64,000 nt of DNA from Candidatus Parcubacteria bacterium (GTDB lineage Bacteria; Patescibacteriota; Minisyncoccia; UBA6257; 2-01-FULL-56-20), in assembly GCA_027450205.1 (NCBI GenBank), contig DAIDJL010000005.1, positions 251-64,250 of the forward strand. The letters are read 5' to 3'. Positions 51,475-59,957 of the stretch are shown piece by piece (the first letter of the stretch is position 1; each line of letters opens with the position of its first letter). The notes beneath the pieces were generated by a model that saw only the letters and a program-made list of their open reading frames with translations, did not search any database and was not told where the DNA came from. A program made the position numbers and the translations under genes.

Positions 51475-52980
51475 CTAACGAGCACAGCGAAAGCCAATAT
51501 AATAATCAGGGCCGGAAGCTCCCCAGTTGACACTCAGCATAAAGAGTCCGCTCGTCCACCCACTGTTATAGTCGTTGCCGCGATCAAAATCCCATGTGCC
51601 CTGATTGCCACCGTTGAGATACGTCAGAAGCGCTCCCATTCCTTGTCCAGAATTCCAGCTATTCGGAGGCGCTACTTCGTTTTGGGGGACATCCGATGTC
51701 CAGTTCGATACATTGGTGAATTCGCACCAGCTCCAGGTCGCACCTCCCCCTGAACAGGAAGGCACGTTCATGGTATTCGTGGCGTCACCTTGATCCATCG
51801 TGCTTCGTTGTACGTGCTCATCCACATTTCCCGCCAAATCCCAAATGACCGAGCCATCGGAAAGTACGAGTGTGCGGCGCTGATTTTGAGCAGCAGAACC
51901 GCCGGTTCCTGTACCACCGCCTGAAGTCGGACCGTCGGTGCCTGTATATCCATCAGCATCATTCGGGCCCGCCGGAGAAACTGCATTGGGGATACCGTCG
52001 TTATGGCCGGAATACACATACCCGGAGCCGACCGATCCGCCCGACCAGTTCGCCGCCTGCCCAACTGCATTCATGGCGATCGTCATATACTCATCGTTCG
52101 TGAGAAGATGCGCACCGATGGAATCGCAGTATTGCTTTGCGGTAGGTTCGCTCACAAATCCAATGGGCCATCCACCGGGCAGTGATGAAATTTGACGACC
52201 GTTGGCAGTGCTGCATGCATAAGATGCATCGTCATACGTGTCATATCCGGAATTGTAGTCATTCAAATAATTCCCTTTACCGTCAGAACACACTGCGTCG
52301 TATTTCATCACCCAGAATGCGGGCGTCCCATACGTCGGGTTGCCGGGAACCAAGACCCAGTTCCGCCCACCCGCAATAGTCTGGCTGCTCCCGCTCCGGA
52401 ACAGATTGGGATTTGCCCCGGTGGCTGCGATCTGTTTCTGTGATTCAGGCACCGCGATCAGTTTAAAGTTCGTTCCGTCGGTCAGATACTCGTAATACAG
52501 ATTGGTCGAGGTCTGATTTGAGGGATCGACGGGCAGCGATCCCAGCGGAGACCCGCTTGATATGTTTTTGAAATCCACCGGGATCCATCCCGTGCCGTCT
52601 ACGTTCCGATACGTTGAGCTCGCCGCGCAATGGAAATATCCTCCCGAAGGGAAGCCCAGCCCCGAACAATCCGTGCCAGCGGAGCTGGTAGCGGTGGGAT
52701 CGGGGATGGAGATATATGCAACATTAGGGGTACCCAGAGAGTAAGAACTATTTCCGCTCTGGTCAGCCATATATGTCTGAATTGCATTGGTCAGAGTATT
52801 AAGGTCAGATAAGCGATTGACATCCCGTGATTGCTTCAGAAGCTCGGCGGGATTGAGGACGAGAACGACGACCACGGCAAGGATGGCGAGGATGGCGATG
52901 ACGACGAGAAGCTCGATGAGGGTGAAGGCCCTCTCGCTATTCCTCCGCTCCGCATGGTATGAAGAGGATGGTGCGGCCAT
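51475..52980 (-). CDS. type IV pilin-like protein with a C-terminal FGE-sulfatase (C-type lectin fold) domain
   Basis: The prepilin N-terminus is ERAFTLIELLVVIAILAILAVVVVLV. The first ~150 aa are paralogous to 3079..4359. The C-terminus GNDYNSGWTSGLFMLSVNWGASGPDYYIGFRCAR carries the FGE-sulfatase signature (GGSW...YIGFRCA). Confidence 0.7.
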   Translation of the reverse strand: MAAPSSSYHAERRNSERAFTLIELLVVIAILAILAVVVVLVLNPAELLKQSRDVNRLSDLNTLTNAIQTYMADQSGNSSYSLGTPNVAYISIPDPTATSSAGTDCSGLGFPSGGYFHCAASSTYRNVDGTGWIPVDFKNISSGSPLGSLPVDPSNQTSTNLYYEYLTDGTNFKLIAVPESQKQIAATGANPNLFRSGSSQTIAGGRNWVLVPGNPTYGTPAFWVMKYDAVCSDGKGNYLNDYNSGYDTYDDASYACSTANGRQISSLPGGWPIGFVSEPTAKQYCDSIGAHLLTNDEYMTIAMNAVGQAANWSGGSVGSGYVYSGHNDGIPNAVSPAGPNDADGYTGTDGPTSGGGTGTGGSAAQNQRRTLVLSDGSVIWDLAGNVDEHVQRSTMDQGDATNTMNVPSCSGGGATWSWCEFTNVSNWTSDVPQNEVAPPNSWNSGQGMGALLTYLNGGNQGTWDFDRGNDYNSGWTSGLFMLSVNWGASGPDYYIGFRCAR

Positions 52981-55654: not shown

Positions 55655-55878
55655 GAAGTCACTCTTCGAAGACCCCTCTGTTGGGTCTGTTGCAGTGTAA
55701 TTTTTTCTGTATGTAATCAGCTTCTTTGCAGGGAGTATCGGCATGATGCCGTCTAGAAATCCTGTCAGATTTGCGTGAGGGCATCGACCGCTACAAAATC
55801 GACTACATCGATGTAGCGGGAAAAAGCAGATGCGTGGCCGGAATCGGTCATATCAGATGAAATATCTAAGGTTTACGA

Positions 55879-55930
55879 TGGTCGGGGCGGAGGGATTCGA
55901 ACCCCCGACCCTCTGCTCCCAAAGCAGAAT
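55879..55930 (-). other. 3' fragment of a tRNA-Pro(TGG) gene (anticodon arm through CCA), a likely att-site remnant of an integrative element
   Basis: The minus strand reads TCTGC-TTTGGGA-GCAGA-GGGTC-GGGGG-TTCGAAT-CCCTC-CGCCCCG-A-CCA. It has a perfect anticodon arm (loop UUUGGGA, as in E. coli proM), a T-arm and an acceptor 3' strand with encoded CCA. The upstream 5' half (needs CGGGGCG + D-arm) is absent. Confidence 0.55.
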
Positions 55931-56004
55931 AAGGCGGCTATGGTTCCTTGTGGAAATCTGCTGCGTGGTTGTGCTTTGGATTGAATGGGTTAGAGTATCG
56001 CTAC

Positions 56005-57285
56005 TTACCCTTGTTGATCGTTGTGGCTCTCGGAGGCTTTGACCGCTACAAAATCATCTACATTCAGGATTTCTCGTTGTATCGGCAAAAGGGGCGACCA
56101 GAGGAAAGCTCCGCCGGAAACCGGAGACGAATCACAAAGGTTTATCGCCTCAACCCACGTCATCGCGACGGCAAGTAGCCCAAGCGACGGTGCAGTCGCT
56201 TGGATATTCTCGAACATGACCCGACCACAATCCCCGGGCCCATCGCCGAGTGTTTCGGCAAACTGCGGTGCGGTGTTCGTGTTCATTGGCTCGGTAAAGA
56301 TGACCTTCGCGATCTCACGACTTGGCGGAAGCGAATGCCAGCTTATGCGGGGCCGACAGAAATTCGTACCAACACCGCACTCGACGAGCCAAGGGAAGCC
56401 CGCCTCCACTGCAATTCGCCTAGCATCCATATTGTCGAAGCCGAGAAAGGCAAACGCAGACTGCAATTTACCGCACTTCCAACCCCATTTGATTTCACGT
56501 TGTTCTTCGGTGACGACCCATCCCCAGCCTCGGCAGAGCGCGGCAAGATATTCGACCTTAGGTTTATTGCGCCAAAGTTCTAATGCTTGCTCTTCTAGGA
56601 GTATCTGAGTCCGCTGGTTACAATCCTCAAACGGATCCTTATCGAGGAGATGAACCCGAAGTCTCTGCCCATTCGCCAAAAAGAATGCCAAGGCCAGAAA
56701 CGCTTGCCCGACCTGCCCGGCGCCTAAGACTGAAAATGGGGGTAAAACGATCTCTGAGGGCACGATTGGGAGACTGACCGAGTTTTGGACCCACGCCTCG
56801 CGGAAGGGAGGGATACCAACGGCTTGTGCAAGCGCAGAAAATGCCAAGTAACCGGATATTGCGCACGCGCAGATCGGATGAGCCGGATTATGTCCCGGCA
56901 GTGTCGTTCCGTAAGCAATCTCATTACCACGCGCATCTCCCCTGATTTCGATTCCGTGCCCTTGCTCGCCTGGTATGTCGCCGAGGAGGATGCGAATGCC
57001 ACCTTCCGGTTCACCGCTTCGAAGCTCGCACCGAGGTCCTAGCGCGACCGGTGCCGATGGCATCTGGTCTAATCCCGCATGGATGAGAATCCGTCCGGTG
57101 AACTGACGCTCGAGGGCCGAAGCCAGAAACCAAACACACGGCCAAAGGTCATTCGCAGTCGCTCTCGTCGGTTCGACGATGATTGAGACATCTTTAGCGA
57201 GACGACGATCAAGCTCTTCAGACGTCAATGCATCGATATCGGCCTTCAGAAGCCCGTTGATAATCCGATCATTATGGCGTTCCAT
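56005..57285 (-). CDS. E1-like (ThiF/MoeB/UBA superfamily) ubiquitin-activating-like enzyme
   Basis: The Rossmann motif is FSVLGAGQVGQAFLALAFFLA, in a 426-aa protein. It is last in a 4-gene minus-strand operon with JAB, E2-like and Ubl-like genes. Confidence 0.65.
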   Translation of the reverse strand: MERHNDRIINGLLKADIDALTSEELDRRLAKDVSIIVEPTRATANDLWPCVWFLASALERQFTGRILIHAGLDQMPSAPVALGPRCELRSGEPEGGIRILLGDIPGEQGHGIEIRGDARGNEIAYGTTLPGHNPAHPICACAISGYLAFSALAQAVGIPPFREAWVQNSVSLPIVPSEIVLPPFSVLGAGQVGQAFLALAFFLANGQRLRVHLLDKDPFEDCNQRTQILLEEQALELWRNKPKVEYLAALCRGWGWVVTEEQREIKWGWKCGKLQSAFAFLGFDNMDARRIAVEAGFPWLVECGVGTNFCRPRISWHSLPPSREIAKVIFTEPMNTNTAPQFAETLGDGPGDCGRVMFENIQATAPSLGLLAVAMTWVEAINLCDSSPVSGGAFLWSPLLPIQREILNVDDFVAVKASESHNDQQG

Positions 57286-57293
57286 GCTGAGCC

Positions 57294-57875
57294 TTATACA
57301 AGTACGACGCGTCGGCCAATTTCTGATCCACGAAATTCATGCCAGCCGTCGTTAGTTCGCGCATGAATCCCAATTCGCGCTAAATCCCACGGCTCTCGAC
57401 CGTACCAAGGCACCACAAGCGACCAGAACCCGATCCGTGAGCATATCTGGTTGTCTTCATCGACCGCACTTAGTCCGACCCAGTCTCGCGGATGCGTATG
57501 AATGAGCGAAACGATCTTTTGGCCTTTTGTCGCAAGCGTACGATACAGTTCGAATTTCGCTCGCTCCGAGAGCTCAAGCGAGAGCGGTCCAGCATTGTCT
57601 TCGCAAAGTTCGTGGTGATAAAGCACGTCGGAGGCGATCGCGTCGTCGCCATCCAATGACCCGATCCAGATTGCCGCGCTTTCCCGCCATCCGGCGCTCC
57701 GGTCAGCCAATTGCCGGAGCGTTCTCTCGAATAACGACTGTGGAACCAGCAGTCGAGTATGCTTTAGCTCTTCCGGTTGTACCCGCGCCCGGGAACGTGA
57801 AGCATCGTCCTCAGAAAATCGAGGTATCCCACGATTTGGTTTTCCTTTTTTTGCCATGCTCGGCTTTGTCTCCAT
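57294..57875 (-). CDS. JAB/MPN (JAMM) metallopeptidase, deubiquitinase-like
   Basis: The JAMM motif is HTHPRDWVGLSAVDEDN (HxHx7Sx2D), with an upstream Glu. The track TTG start was moved to ATG (METKPSMAKK). Confidence 0.65.
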   Translation of the reverse strand: METKPSMAKKGKPNRGIPRFSEDDASRSRARVQPEELKHTRLLVPQSLFERTLRQLADRSAGWRESAAIWIGSLDGDDAIASDVLYHHELCEDNAGPLSLELSERAKFELYRTLATKGQKIVSLIHTHPRDWVGLSAVDEDNQICSRIGFWSLVVPWYGREPWDLARIGIHARTNDGWHEFRGSEIGRRVVLV

Positions 57876-58198
57876 TCTGGGTGGTGGTGAATCCCTTGGC
57901 GATCTTGATCCCAACAGATAAACCCAGGTGACGACCTAAATTTGATTGTGCCTTCAAAAGTCACATCGCCATCGGGCCATACTTGCGGACTACCGCACGG
58001 GATGAACGAGCAGCTGATCGGCTCATTCCAATATCCAGTACAATCGAACCGCGCCAAGAACCCTCGACCATCGGGGGCGTTCAGACGTACTTGCACTACG
58101 TCGCCATCTCGCCCCGCGAGTTCCCAGAAACCCTGATCTACACCGGCCCGAAATTCCGGGGATGCAACGTCGCGCGTGAGCCGTTCGCCGCTATCCAT
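57764..58198 (-). CDS. candidate E2-like (UBC-fold?) conjugating enzyme
   Basis: A 144-aa Cys-containing protein (FICWDQDRQGIHHHPEW) sits between the Ubl-like and JAB genes. The assignment rests mainly on operon position. It overlaps the upstream gene by 8 bp. The 57764 end overlaps the JAB coding region, so the true stop may differ. Confidence 0.3.
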   Translation of the reverse strand: MDSGERLTRDVASPEFRAGVDQGFWELAGRDGDVVQVRLNAPDGRGFLARFDCTGYWNEPISCSFIPCGSPQVWPDGDVTFEGTIKFRSSPGFICWDQDRQGIHHHPEWRQSRAWQKKENQIVGYLDFLRTMLHVPGRGYNRKS

Positions 58199-58682
58199 TT
58201 CTTTCCGGTCCCGGCTTCACGAGCCACACCGTCTTGCAGCCCTCAAAGCTTCCGATGTGTTTGTTCTCGTTGATCGCGGGGCCTTCCGGACTGCCCTCTC
58301 GCATCTCAAGATTGGCGCTCGCGGTGTGCGCGATCTTGAAGTGCTTGCACGCCCACTGAAATACGTGCTTCCACTTGGCACGGGCGGGAAAGTGGTGGGT
58401 CGCAGACTCACTTTCAAAGTGGATATCAACGCACTCCAGCTTGAGTTTGCCGTGGTGCCGACCTGGATGGTAGCACTCGGCTTCGGCGGTGAATTCCTCG
58501 ACGAGTTCTTCTGTTCCGAGGGCGAGCACCGAAGCCAACTTCTCGGCTAGGTGCCTGTGGTTGGGTTCCACATCGCACTCGACCTTTACGCTTTCCACCG
58601 GCCTGCCGTGACGATGGACTTCAATCGTCACGACTACCGCTTCCCCGGCGGAACCTCCTTCGCTAAGCTGCTGGTTTTCCAT
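58191..58682 (-). CDS. candidate ubiquitin-like (tandem beta-grasp?) protein ending in Gly
   Basis: It is the first gene of the operon. The start was moved from the GTG to ATG (MENQQLSEGG) with an SD-like AAAGGAAAA. The C-terminus is ...LVKPGPERNG*. VVVTIEVHRHGRPVESVKVECDV and KLKLECVDIHFESE look like beta-grasp strands. Confidence 0.3.
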   Translation of the reverse strand: MENQQLSEGGSAGEAVVVTIEVHRHGRPVESVKVECDVEPNHRHLAEKLASVLALGTEELVEEFTAEAECYHPGRHHGKLKLECVDIHFESESATHHFPARAKWKHVFQWACKHFKIAHTASANLEMREGSPEGPAINENKHIGSFEGCKTVWLVKPGPERNG

Positions 58683-58818
58683 AGGTTGTAGTTTTCCTTT
58701 CTGTCTCCGCACTTGACGGAGCGACAGGATGACCTTATCCTGTAATAGGAAGTCTAGCGAATCGCCCCGTAGGTGTCAACACCATCAGGATGTGAATATC
58801 CTGTGCAAGGACAAAACC

Positions 58819-59184
58819 ATGAGCATTTACGAACAAATCGGAGCGAAAATAAGAGAACTTCGGGTGCATCACCTCGGAAAGGGAATCAGCCAGGAAACCC
58901 TTGCCGAAGCGATGAACACTACCCCCAACACGATTTCCCGATGGGAAACCGCCACATATAAACCATCCATTGAGGATTTGGAGAAATTGGCACGGTATTT
59001 CGGAACCACCATCGGGGTATTCTTTCCAAACATCGATCCGGGGGCACGCGTTCAGGCACTCCTCAGTGCTACAGGCGACCTCGACGATGATGACCTTGAC
59101 GAGCTTACCCGTTACGCACAGTTTCGTCGGGCCAGGAAGGAGTTGGATCAGGCGAAGAAACGAGGGAAGCGAAAAGCGCTATGA
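58819..59184 (+). CDS. XRE-family HTH regulator (CapH-like)
   Basis: The HTH is LGKGISQETLAEAMNTTPNTISRWET. The start was moved to ATG (MSIYEQIGAK). It is divergent from the Ubl operon and overlaps the downstream peptidase gene by 4 bp. Confidence 0.6.
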   Translation: MSIYEQIGAKIRELRVHHLGKGISQETLAEAMNTTPNTISRWETATYKPSIEDLEKLARYFGTTIGVFFPNIDPGARVQALLSATGDLDDDDLDELTRYAQFRRARKELDQAKKRGKRKAL

Positions 59185-59819
59185 TGGCGAATCCAAACTA
59201 CGCATCACTAAAGGAGCTTGCGCGAGCGAAGAGGGCGCAATACGGTGTGACTACCGAGGCTCTCAACCTGATCGTAGTGAGGAAGATTTACTCAGACGAA
59301 GGGATTCGCATCGACAATTGGGAGTTCCCGCGAACCATCCGCGCTGCCTACATGAGCGATGACGCGGACCCTTCGGTCGCGATCAACAAGACACTGCCGA
59401 GAGAACCGCGTCTCTTCTCACTAGTGCATGAGCTGAAGCACCACTACGTTGACCGGCCGAAGATCGAGCAGGGGCAAATCAAGTGCGGCGACTACAACGA
59501 GAACCAGACAATTGAAATTGGAGCTGAGGTGTTCGCCGCCGAATTTATCTATCCGGAAACCGAGTTTCTGGAACGGCTGCAACTCCTGAATATCGAACCG
59601 GGACAATGCTCGCCCGAGGATGTTGTACGCCTCAAGCGCGAATGCAGGGCCTGCGTCAGCTATCAGTTTCTAAGGAAACGGCTCGTGCGGCTGGGATTCG
59701 CCATGCCTCACGCCTTCGATAAAATCCAGTTTCAAAAACTCGAAGAACAACTGTATGGGCCGCCGATCTACAAGCAGAAATGGTTCCAGCGGCGGCGTGG
59801 TCGTGCCCAGGCAAAATAG
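59181..59819 (+). CDS. ImmA/IrrE-family zinc metallopeptidase (CapP-like, DUF955)
   Basis: The HEXXH motif is VHELKHHYVD, with a downstream Glu/Cys-rich region. Confidence 0.65.
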   Translation: MMANPNYASLKELARAKRAQYGVTTEALNLIVVRKIYSDEGIRIDNWEFPRTIRAAYMSDDADPSVAINKTLPREPRLFSLVHELKHHYVDRPKIEQGQIKCGDYNENQTIEIGAEVFAAEFIYPETEFLERLQLLNIEPGQCSPEDVVRLKRECRACVSYQFLRKRLVRLGFAMPHAFDKIQFQKLEEQLYGPPIYKQKWFQRRRGRAQAK

Positions 59820-59957
59820 CTGGACCAATGTCATTTGCCAAATGCATGTGGATGAGTTTTATTTCACTCGCCGGGGCAGAGGATGTCGTTCCTTCACACT
59901 CAGCAACCTCAACGCTGGCGCTTTGGGCTTGATGCTCTCTGACCCTACAGAGTAGTG

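What the first reader, a model, noticed from the sequence alone, without database searches (positions are those of the whole stretch)
56005..58682. Four-gene Ubl - E2-like - JAB - E1 operon (Bil-like bacterial ubiquitination-type antiphage system)
Seen in sequence:
- A minus-strand operon has overlapping or adjacent genes.
- An ORF ending ...ERNG is the candidate Ubl with a C-terminal Gly.
- A 144-aa Cys-containing protein is the candidate E2.
- A JAB/MPN protein carries the canonical HTHPRDWVGLSAVD JAMM motif.
- A 426-aa ThiF/E1-like protein carries GAGQVGQ.

Established: E1-E2-JAB-Ubl operons (the BilABCD order is Ubl, E2, DUB, E1) conjugate a ubiquitin-like protein to phage tail proteins and act in defense.

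Inference: gene order and sizes match Bil. The E2 and Ubl assignments rest on context and are not confirmed by motifs. The operon sits in an island flanked by a tRNA fragment and a type I R-M system.
Basis: partly seen in the sequence, partly recalled or inferred. Interest (0 to 1): 0.75.

Follow-up and report, generated by a model that had tools for sequence, protein, structure and literature searches.

The report
Bil ubiquitin-like antiphage operon, regulated
This is an intact bacterial ubiquitin-like conjugation operon (BilABCD: Ubl, E2, deubiquitinase, E1) of a kind already shown to block phage assembly, here from a divergent, mostly acidobacterial branch, with its own repressor/protease switch, at the edge of a mobile island.

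Summary
Four intact minus-strand genes (bilA 58191-58682, bilB 57764-58198, bilC 57294-57857, bilD 56005-57285) match the PADLOC BilA/B/C/D models.

both now hold. The AlphaFold model of the 163-aa protein is closest to the solved Ubl(BilA), then SUMO, ISG15 and ubiquitin. The model of the 144-aa protein is closest to the solved E2(BilB), then eukaryotic E2s.
- **Conserved residues:** the terminal Gly163, E2 Cys95, the JAMM motif, and in the E1 Arg7, GxGxxG and Cys353 are invariant or line up with reference Bil proteins.
- **Type:** the system belongs to a small, discrete, mostly Acidobacteriota clade. It is homologous over the full E1 length to Type I Bil but distant from it, and it is not Type II Bil or Bub.
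a divergent CapH/CapP-like HTH + M78 peptidase pair with conserved operators around the bil promoter. Some HTH + M78 pair lies upstream of bilA in nearly all related loci.
- **Mobility:** the six-gene cassette lies at the distal end of a tRNA-integrated mobile element, next to a type I R-M system.

Antiphage function and the tail-fibre target are inferred, not shown. This is a new member of a known kind, of modest interest.

The parts
58191..58682 (-). bilA: ubiquitin-like protein, 163 aa, ending in Gly163 with no residues to trim
57764..58198 (-). bilB: E2-like conjugating enzyme, 144 aa, candidate catalytic Cys95 (FICWDQDR) with nearby His105/106
57294..57857 (-). bilC: JAB/JAMM deubiquitinase, 187 aa from the ATG at 57857 (ORF open to 57914). 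Motif residues in the 206-aa ORF numbering are Glu78, His140, His142, Ser150, Asp153.
   Evidence: PADLOC BilC 3.2e-20. phmmer to solved DUB(BilC) 8tyx_B 2.9e-8, with E78 aligned to catalytic E33. Motif lines up with Type I and II BilC. Start codon placement.
56005..57285 (-). bilD: E1-like activating enzyme, 426 aa. Conserved Arg7, G188xG190xxG193, Asp215, Asp284, Arg289 and candidate catalytic Cys353. The last ~20 codons lie in the att-like unit.
   Evidence: PADLOC BilD 6e-23. hhalign to a Type I BilD profile: prob 99.9%, E 1e-35, columns 7-393. C353 is 100% conserved in 113 sequences. Profile hits MccB/ThiF/E1 adenylation domains.
58819..59184 (+). capH-like HTH repressor, 121 aa from the ATG at 58819 (the ORF also opens at the ATG at 58729, 151 aa)
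   Evidence: Pfam HTH_3 2e-14; PADLOC capH 7.9e-7. Homologues are 115-131 aa and align from residue ~31.
59181..59819 (+). capP-like M78 (ImmA/IrrE-type) zinc peptidase, 212 aa, H83-E84-x-x-H87, overlapping the capH stop by 4 nt
   Evidence: Pfam Peptidase_M78 1.2e-10; PADLOC capP 1.3e-9, peptidase domain only.
58751..58779 (-). sigma-70-type promoter for bilABCD: TTGACA-17-TAGACT
   Evidence: Scan, 10 of 12 matches. The -35 hexamer is invariant, or nearly so, in the aligned intergenic regions of related loci.
58738..58811 (.). two TCCT-N5-AGGA palindromes (58799-58811 and 58738-58750) bracketing the promoter; candidate repressor operators
   Evidence: Read from the alignment of intergenic regions. 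Both palindromes are kept in L001, L003, L005 and L021. The second abuts the -10 hexamer.
55873..56062 (-). about 190-nt att-like unit ending in a tRNA 3' part (55879-55935; anticodon-loop-like TTTGGGA, T-arm, acceptor ...CCGACCA); marks the distal end of an integrated element
   Evidence: Exact tRNA 3' motif found once. The unit recurs twice in L003 and is partly repeated at 55785-55820 in the window.

Best explanation
The locus is a complete, apparently functional BilABCD ubiquitin-like conjugation system from a divergent clade related to Type I Bil.

Inferred mechanism, by homology with characterised Bil systems:
1. BilD (E1) adenylates the C-terminal Gly163 of BilA and takes it as a thioester on Cys353.
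2. BilA is passed to Cys95 of BilB (E2).
3. BilA is ligated to lysines of a target, expected to be a phage tail-tip protein, which spoils virion assembly and infectivity.
4. BilC (JAMM peptidase) reverses or edits conjugates. In relatives whose Ubl carries 1-8 residues after the Gly, it would also trim those residues.

Expression is probably held off by the divergent HTH repressor bound to TCCT-N5-AGGA operators around the bil promoter. It would be released when the adjacent M78 peptidase cleaves the repressor in response to a damage or infection signal, as in CapH/CapP.

The six-gene cassette travels on tRNA-integrating mobile elements.

Shown here: gene content, folds, motifs, conservation and context. 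Inferred: the chemistry, the target, the inducing signal and the defence phenotype.
For: - All four PADLOC Bil models hit, in Bil gene order.
- BilA and BilB models are closest to the solved BilA and BilB structures. BilC matches solved BilC by sequence, with the catalytic Glu aligned.
- The BilD profile aligns over its full length to Type I BilD (99.9%, E 1e-35). Arg7, GxGxxGQ, Asp215, Asp284 and Cys353 fall on Type I invariant columns. Cys353 is 100% conserved.
- Gly163 is invariant. Cys95 and His106 are invariant.
- Operon order is conserved in about 20 loci from Acidobacteriota, Rokubacteria and Gammaproteobacteria.
- Neighbours are defence or mobile-element genes.
- An HTH + M78 pair lies upstream of bilA in the window and in 14 related places: L001/L002 (one place), L003, L005, L009, L010, L012, L014, L016-L019, L021, L023 and the P0048 place. 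L007 and L022 instead carry an HTH gene plus an unassigned 341-aa ORF.
- The promoter and palindromes are conserved.
- The cassette is 86% nt-identical to one on an integrase/relaxase-bearing element.
- Mechanism taken from bioRxiv 10.1101/2023.09.04.556158, 10.1101/2023.09.26.559546 and 10.1101/2022.04.27.489752.
Against: - No experiment: conjugation, target and phage defence are all inferred.
- Similarity to canonical Type I is low. PADLOC E-values are 1e-8 to 1e-23, against 1e-37 to 1e-164 for two canonical operons. BilA shows no pairwise similarity to Type I BilA.
- The BilB model has low confidence (pLDDT <50) across residues 73-96, which include Cys95. Cys95 sits 3 residues away from the Type I Cys in the alignment.
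- The N-terminal half of BilA is predicted as two strands plus two helices, not clearly a full beta-grasp.
- BilD's C-terminal tail is replaced by att-unit sequence.
- The CapP-like protein matches only the peptidase domain of CapP. The GAF domain was not verified.
Confidence: 0.8

Rival explanations
1. The operon is a Ubl-conjugation system, but its role is a DNA-damage or stress response, or control of the mobile element that carries it, not phage defence. Its targets would then be host or element proteins, not a phage tail protein.
For: - It is controlled by an ImmR/ImmA- or CapH/CapP-type switch, which typically responds to DNA damage.
- It sits at the end of a tRNA-integrated element. Its closest relative lies on an element with integrase, relaxase and a coupling-protein-like gene.
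- A gene matching Pfam YdjM follows bilD in L003/L004 and at the P0048 place. That YdjM belongs to the SOS regulon is my own recollection, not tested here.
- A canonical Type I operon on a Paraburkholderia plasmid sits next to an SOS-response peptidase and an error-prone polymerase.
- The literature itself leaves non-defence roles open for Bil and Bub relatives.
Against: - Type I Bil has been shown experimentally to defend against phages by modifying the central tail fibre.
- The cassette with its regulator also occurs in chromosomal places where no integrase or relaxase gene was called within 8-10 kb (L001, L023).
- Neighbours are mostly defence genes: type I R-M here, and HamA/helicase, TIR, OLD-like and MmeI/Eco57I-type R-M elsewhere.
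- CapH/CapP-type control is itself typical of defence operons.
Confidence: 0.12
2. The genes form a sulfur-carrier or cofactor pathway of the ThiF/MoeB-ThiS/MoaD type with a JAB peptidase (as in CysO/Mec+). They would make a thiocarboxylate and not conjugate proteins.
For: - The E1 profile weakly matches ThiF and MccB adenylation domains.
- Some homologues carry a precomputed ThiF Pfam hit, and one is named an adenylyltransferase by its source.
Against: - An E2-fold protein with an invariant Cys is always present between the Ubl and JAB genes.
- BilA's best structural matches are BilA, SUMO and ISG15, ahead of MoaD.
- BilD is homologous over its full length to Bil E1, with an invariant catalytic Cys on the same column.
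- No thiamin, molybdopterin or cysteine biosynthesis operon adjoins bil in any place examined.
Confidence: 0.02
3. The operon is a decaying remnant. The deletion that joined bilD to the att-like unit has inactivated the E1, or the system is otherwise non-functional.
For: - Homology to the nearest cassette breaks at bilD codon ~405, and the last ~20 residues come from att-unit sequence.
- The genes that follow bilD in L003 (YdjM, DUF3892) are missing here.
Against: - All four ORFs are intact and every conserved catalytic residue is present.
- BilD C-terminal tails beyond the conserved LLPxxR are variable in length and sequence among homologues, so the replaced part is not conserved.
- The promoter and operators are intact.
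Confidence: 0.06

Closest known systems
Type I BilABCD (Bacterial ISG15-like system; Collimonas sp. OK412 prototype)
   Same: - Gene order Ubl-E2-JAB-E1.
- BilA of 163 aa ending in Gly, the same length as the prototype.
- No Pfam Prok-E2_C domain on the E1.
- All four PADLOC (Type I-derived) models hit.
- BilD is homologous over its full length to Type I BilD, with the Arg, GxGxxGQ, Asp and catalytic Cys columns shared.
   Different: - Large sequence distance. An exhaustive search shows a gap from E<=1e-65 within the clade to about 1e-9 for 440-480-aa Type I-like E1s.
- Pairwise scores to two canonical operons: BilD 40-56 bits, BilB about 21 bits, BilA 0.
- The E1 is about 40 aa shorter.
- Many clade members carry 1-8 residues after the Gly.
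- bilC starts inside bilB.
- The N-terminal half of BilA is not clearly a full beta-grasp.
Type II BilABCD (CEHH/6C operons; Ensifer aridi TW10, solved structures 8TYX-8TYZ)
   Same: - Same four functions and gene order.
- The solved BilA and BilB are the best structural matches of the window's models.
- BilC is similar by sequence (2.9e-8).
- A C-terminal extension after the Gly in many relatives recalls the Type II pre-processing by BilC.
- CapH/CapP association is reported for 15% of Type II operons.
   Different: - No sequence similarity for BilA, BilB or BilD to a Type II operon from S. fredii NGR234.
- No PF14459 domain on the E1.
- The E1 is 426 aa, against 519.
- No conserved 4-Cys zinc site: only Cys353 is conserved.
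- The Ubl is a 163-aa two-part protein, not a ~98-aa single beta-grasp.
CapH/CapP (and ImmR/ImmA, DdrO/IrrE) two-protein repressor/peptidase switches
   Same: - A small HTH protein followed by an M78 HExxH peptidase, encoded next to and divergent from a defence operon.
- PADLOC capH 7.9e-7 and capP 1.3e-9.
- Palindromic sites around the regulated promoter.
   Different: - Only the peptidase domain of CapP is matched (residues 9-134).
- The 212-aa protein is about 30 aa shorter than the 242-position CapP model.
- The C-terminal GAF domain and ssDNA activation were not verified.
- Different, non-orthologous HTH/M78 pairs occupy the same position in other clade members.
Bub operons (6E/DUF6527)
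   Same: They also encode bacterial Ubl, E2, E1 and peptidase functions, and are often under CapH/CapP or CapW control.
   Different: Bub systems have a DUF6527 serine protease and fused Ubl-E2, JAB-E1 or E2-E1 proteins. The window has four separate genes and no DUF6527-like gene.

Membership tests
BilABCD (any type) | Four genes in the order Ubl - E2 - JAB/JAMM peptidase - E1 | tested here: met
   ORFs and PADLOC BilA/B/C/D hits in that order on the minus strand. The same order is found in about 20 related loci.
BilABCD (any type) | Ubl with a beta-grasp fold and a conserved C-terminal (or near-terminal) glycine | tested here: met
BilABCD (any type) | E2 (UBC-like) fold with a conserved catalytic Cys and adjacent His | tested here: inconclusive
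BilABCD (any type) | JAMM motif E...HxHx7Sx2D in BilC | tested here: met
   HTHPRDWVGLSAVD is read directly. Glu78 aligns with the catalytic E33 of solved BilC. All motif residues line up with Type I and II BilC.
BilABCD (any type) | E1 with N-terminal inactive and C-terminal active adenylation domains, a glycine-rich ATP loop, an N-terminal Arg and a catalytic Cys | tested here: met
   By sequence only: hhalign to Type I BilD gives 99.9%, E 1e-35, over columns 7-393. R7, G188/G190/G193, D215, D284 and C353 are conserved. No structure model was made for BilD.
BilABCD (any type) | Ubl~E1 thioester, Ubl-lysine conjugation to a phage tail protein, protection against phage | not testable with these tools
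   Known only for the Collimonas (Type I) and E. aridi (Type II) systems.
Type I Bil | Protein sequences group with the Type I set (types are defined by sequence) | tested here: inconclusive
   The window is closer to Type I than to Type II, but it is separated by a clear gap. It also scores far below two canonical operons on the Type I HMMs. No full phylogeny was built.
Type I Bil | BilA with two beta-grasp domains (ISG15-like) | tested here: inconclusive
   The C-terminal domain is a clear beta-grasp. The N-terminal part (residues 16-72) is predicted as two strands plus two helices. The PADLOC BilA match spans model positions 20-145 of 162.
Type II Bil (CEHH/6C) | E1 with Pfam PF14459 (Prok-E2_C) N-terminal domain; E2 with the CEHH motif; sequence similarity to the Type II set | tested here: not met
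   No Pfam hit on BilD. phmmer gives 0 bits for BilA, BilB and BilD against the S. fredii NGR234 Type II operon. No PDB sequence hit to E. aridi BilD, BilA or BilB.
Bub (6E/DUF6527) | DUF6527 serine protease gene and fused Ubl-E2, JAB-E1 or E2-E1 proteins | tested here: not met
   There are four separate ORFs. The only genes flanking the operon within 1 kb are the HTH and M78 genes on one side; the other side has only the att-like unit.
CapH/CapP regulator | HTH repressor plus HExxH M78 peptidase encoded next to the regulated operon | tested here: met
   Pfam HTH_3 2e-14 and Peptidase_M78 1.2e-10; PADLOC capH 7.9e-7 and capP 1.3e-9. HELKH is read at residues 83-87.
CapH/CapP regulator | CapP C-terminal GAF domain; ssDNA-stimulated cleavage of CapH in its dimerisation helix | not tested
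   The PADLOC match covers only the peptidase domain (residues 9-134 of 212).
ThiF/MoeB-ThiS/MoaD sulfur-carrier pathways | E1-like enzyme plus beta-grasp carrier without an E2, set among cofactor biosynthesis genes | tested here: not met
   An E2-fold gene is always present. No thiamin, molybdopterin or cysteine biosynthesis operon adjoins bil in any place examined.

The most novel reading that the evidence does not exclude
The window represents a third, so far unnamed sequence type of Bil system, centred on Acidobacteriota. It combines a Type I-like two-part Ubl and short E1 with Type II-like Ubl pre-processing (residues after the Gly in many members). It also has a bilC start embedded in an invariant Trp codon of bilB and near-obligatory control by an HTH/M78 repressor-peptidase switch. 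That would make it an inducible Ubl-conjugation module carried as a six-gene cassette by tRNA-integrating elements, not a constitutive one. Its targets could differ from the tail fibre hit by the Collimonas system.
Probability: 0.3. Interest if true: 0.45.

Novelty: new member of a known kind. Interest (0 to 1): 0.3.

Why it matters
Bil systems are the clearest bacterial counterparts of eukaryotic ubiquitin/ISG15 conjugation, and only a few have been studied, all from Proteobacteria.

- **Range:** this locus extends the family into soil Acidobacteriota with a discrete, distant clade. The clade keeps every catalytic residue, which helps separate essential residues from lineage-specific ones.
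- **Regulation:** the near-universal pairing with an HTH/M78 switch and conserved operators gives a testable case of how a Ubl-conjugation system is kept silent until needed.
- **Annotation:** the bilB/bilC overlap makes gene callers drop or truncate one of the two genes. BilB of this contig is absent from a 15-billion-protein collection that holds its BilA and BilD. Defence-system finders that need all four proteins will therefore under-count this clade.

Tried and rejected
- **Programmed -1 frameshifting from bilB into bilC.** The window has the classic slippery heptamer A AAA AAG right at the bilC ATG, and bilC is in the -1 frame. The heptamer is not conserved in related loci, whereas the embedded ATG (NNA TGG at the invariant Trp115) is. 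Rejected in favour of independent initiation. One relative (L008) has a true BilB-BilC fusion ORF, but it joins a full-length BilB to BilC residue ~32, which is not what a frameshift here would produce.
- **Sequence searches of the PDB.** BilA, BilB (profiles) and BilD (single sequence) found nothing. The top BilD-profile hit, a cytochrome c trimer, is a spurious repeated CG...AP match.
- **The tRNA fragment** does not match either intact tRNA in the window. Rfam at permissive thresholds recognises only the T-arm. The intact tRNA partner should lie beyond the contig end.
- **Source record.** A look-up of the source contig through BilD gave no record.
- **Unavailable or exhausted tools.** The fold search against afdb50 was not available.
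- **tblastn and a window-seeded HMM** missed the regulators in more distant loci. Pfam on the upstream ORFs then found M78 peptidases there.
Full report
**1. Observation**

The region 56005-58682 carries four intact minus-strand ORFs.
- The first ORF is 163 aa from the ATG at 58682 and ends ...KPGPERNG.
- The second is 144 aa. Its ATG overlaps the previous stop by 8 nt.
- The third is a JAB ORF containing HTHPRDWVGLSAVD, an exact H-x-H-x7-S-x2-D JAMM motif.
- The fourth is 426 aa and contains GAGQVGQ.

The PADLOC Bil models hit all four in the right order: BilA 3.4e-8, BilB 2.5e-15, BilC 3.2e-20 and BilD 6e-23, the last over residues 183-388 only. Pfam recognises only the E2 (PF24702, DUF7665, now named BilB-like). 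NCBIfam recognises none of the four.

**2.

*BilA.* An alignment of 28 homologues shows an invariant KPGPExNG tail with Gly163 invariant. The window's protein stops at that Gly. Many relatives carry 1-8 further residues.
- The AlphaFold2 model has mean pLDDT 87.
- The N-terminal part (residues 16-72) is predicted as two strands plus two helices. Whether it is a full second beta-grasp is open.

*BilB.*
- Seventeen homologues share an invariant Cys95 in FICWDQDR, His106 and a WPDG(N/D) element upstream.
- The model is weaker (pLDDT 72; below 50 across residues 73-96).

**3. BilC and BilD**

*BilC.*
- It matches the solved DUB(BilC) 8tyx_B by sequence (2.9e-8), with Glu78 on the catalytic Glu33.
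- Glu, HxH, Ser and Asp line up with Type I and Type II BilC.

*BilD.*
- It has no PDB hit as a single sequence.
- A 48-sequence profile reaches the adenylation domains of MccB (1e-4), ThiF (0.03) and UBA1/UBA3 (0.7-0.9) over residues 172-288.
- In 113 homologues, Cys353 (pgdCG) is 100% conserved and is the only conserved Cys. Arg7, G188xG190xxG193, Asp215, Lys243, Asp284 and Arg289 are invariant or nearly so.
- A profile-profile comparison with 30 Type I-like BilD proteins gives 99.9% probability, E 1e-35, over columns 7-393 against 10-419. The homology therefore covers the N-terminal domain too. Arg7, the glycine loop, Asp215, Asp284 and Cys353 fall on the invariant Type I columns R12, G218/G220/G223, D247, D312 and C391.
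- This matches the published picture of an inactive domain supplying an Arg, plus an active adenylation domain with a mobile Cys. No model of BilD was made here.

**4. Which Bil**

The literature distinguishes two types.
- Type I: Collimonas prototype; BilA of 163 aa with two Ubl domains and a terminal Gly; E1 of about 53 kDa.
- Type II: CEHH/6C operons; E. aridi prototype; a ~98-aa single beta-grasp Ubl trimmed by BilC; E1 with a Prok-E2_C domain and a zinc site.

I fetched two canonical Type I operons (Paraburkholderia caffeinilytica p1, Aminobacter pSR7) and one Type II operon (S. fredii NGR234 pNGR234a).
- The Type I operons score 1e-37 to 1e-164 on the PADLOC models. The window's scores are far weaker.
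- Pairwise phmmer scores:

| Protein | Window clade vs Type I (bits) | Window clade vs Type II (bits) |
|---|---|---|
| BilD | 40-56 | 0 |
| BilB | about 21 | 0 |
| BilC | 27-36 | 22-34 |
| BilA | 0 | 0 |

- An exhaustive phmmer search of 1.84 billion representatives found 131 hits. Full-length relatives (38-56% identity, 409-435 aa) score E <= 1e-65. A clean gap follows, to E about 1e-9, for 440-480-aa proteins matched only in the C-terminal half.

The window therefore belongs to a small, discrete clade related to Type I and distant from it. It is not Type II or Bub. Named relatives are mostly Acidobacteriota MAGs (Terracidiphilus, Edaphobacter, Sulfotelmatobacter, Pyrinomonadaceae, Terriglobia), with a few from Rokubacteria and Gammaproteobacteria.

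**5.

Divergent from bilA lie an HTH gene and an M78 peptidase gene.
- HTH gene: Pfam HTH_3 2e-14, PADLOC capH 7.9e-7. The most likely start is 58819, giving 121 aa.
- M78 peptidase gene: 59181-59819; Pfam 1.2e-10; PADLOC capP 1.3e-9 on the peptidase domain only; HELKH at residues 83-87.

The 136-bp intergenic region holds a sigma-70-type promoter, TTGACA-17-TAGACT, facing bilA. Two TCCT-N5-AGGA palindromes flank it, one abutting the -10 hexamer. The promoter and both palindromes are conserved in L001, L003, L005 and L021.

An HTH + M78 pair sits upstream of bilA in the window and in 14 related places.
- With an HTH + M78 pair: L001/L002 (one place), L003, L005, L009, L010, L012, L014, L016-L019, L021, L023 and the P0048 place.
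- In the more distant members these pairs are often non-orthologous versions.
- Without an M78 hit: L007 and L022 have an HTH gene plus an unassigned 341-aa protein.

By analogy with CapH/CapP, where ssDNA-stimulated CapP cleaves the repressor CapH, the operon is probably silent until a damage or infection signal arrives. The published rate of CapH/CapP association for Type II Bil is 15%.

**6. Mobility and the tRNA fragment**

- Window 59820..56072 is 86% identical at the nucleotide level to a metagenomic contig (L003). There, the same six genes lie on an element with an integrase, a relaxase and a TrwB-like protein.
- Homology stops at bilD codon ~405. The next ~190 nt (56062..55873) is an att-like unit ending in a tRNA 3' part: an anticodon-loop-like TTTGGGA, a T-arm and the acceptor ...CCGACCA at 55879. 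The unit occurs twice in L003 and is begun a third time at 55785-55820 in the window.
- The window's bilD therefore ends inside this unit. Its tail ILNVDDFVAVKASESHNDQQG is unlike any homologue's, and the YdjM and DUF3892 genes that follow bilD in L003 are absent.
- The orientation of the fragment places the island on the high-coordinate side (Bil, regulator, type I R-M). The intact tRNA and integrase would lie beyond the contig end.
- The replaced tail lies after the last conserved BilD motif, so loss of function is unlikely.

**7. Context test**

Genes near related operons:
- type I R-M in the window;
- a TIR protein;
- integrase, relaxase and a methyltransferase;
- RHS and OLD-like nuclease genes;
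- HamA + helicase and a PRTRC Ub/E2/ThiF set;
- an integrase plus MmeI/Eco57I-type R-M.

No thiamin, molybdopterin or cysteine biosynthesis operon adjoins bil in any place examined. The lysine-pathway genes near two loci are separate opposite-strand or downstream clusters.

**8. Mechanism and confidence**

The most likely mechanism is the canonical Bil cascade.
1. BilD adenylates Gly163 of BilA and takes it as a thioester on Cys353.
2. BilA is transferred to Cys95 of BilB.
3. BilA is ligated to a lysine of a phage tail-tip protein.
4. BilC edits conjugates and, in relatives whose Ubl carries extra C-terminal residues, matures the Ubl.

The whole system would be under a repressor/peptidase switch. 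Folds, motifs, conservation and context are shown here. The chemistry, the target, the inducing signal and the phenotype are inferred. I put 0.8 on this reading. The main rival (0.12) is a conjugation system serving stress response or mobile-element biology.

**9. Verdict**

This is a new member of a known kind of system. Points of modest added interest are the discrete acidobacterial clade, the near-obligatory regulator and the overlap-induced annotation gap. Interest 0.3.

Noticed in passing
window 57764-57857 (bilB/bilC overlap); L001, L003-L007, L009, L010, L012-L016, L018, L021, L022: The bilC ATG is embedded in the invariant Trp115 codon of bilB (NNA TGG, -1 frame). This gives an overlap of 94 nt in the window (91-109 nt in the loci measured), kept across most acidobacterial relatives. 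Gene callers then drop bilB or truncate bilC. The window's BilB sequence is absent from the 15-billion-protein collection, although BilA and BilD of the same contig are present.
   Followed up: yes
window 57847-57853: The classic -1 slippery heptamer A AAA AAG sits in the bilB frame directly after the embedded bilC ATG. It is not conserved in related loci, so frameshifting is not supported.
   Followed up: yes
L008 1532-2458: In a Pyrinomonadaceae MAG, bilB and bilC form a single 308-aa ORF (an E2-JAB fusion). It could also be an assembly frameshift.
   Followed up: partly
window 55780-55820 and 56035-56063: A 29-nt direct repeat (86% identical) flanks the tRNA fragment. The second copy is the start of another att-like unit and matches 23/23 nt of a unit in L003. 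This suggests tandem or successive integrations at this tRNA site.
   Followed up: partly
L024 2308-2802 (Paraburkholderia caffeinilytica plasmid p1): This canonical Type I BilB (PADLOC 1.5e-46) has no Cys at the aligned catalytic position: YHPYDR, where Aminobacter has LPCDR. Its only cysteines are near the C-terminus. This could be an alignment problem or an inactive E2.
   Followed up: no
L021 1881-5195: Directly beside a related Bil cassette lies a second, unrelated ubiquitin-like gene set (PRTRC_E, Prok_Ub, Prok-E2_D, ThiF), and next to it a HamA + helicase (Hachiman-type) pair.
   Followed up: no
L003 12672-13369; L004; P0048 place: A YdjM-family gene (and, in L003/L004, a DUF3892 gene) follows bilD in the closest relatives. 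Both are missing in the window, where bilD is joined directly to the att-like unit.
   Followed up: partly
window 51475-52980: A 501-aa protein with a prepilin-type N-terminal signal (FTLIELLVV) lies in the flank on the other side of the tRNA fragment. It is unrelated to the finding.
   Followed up: no
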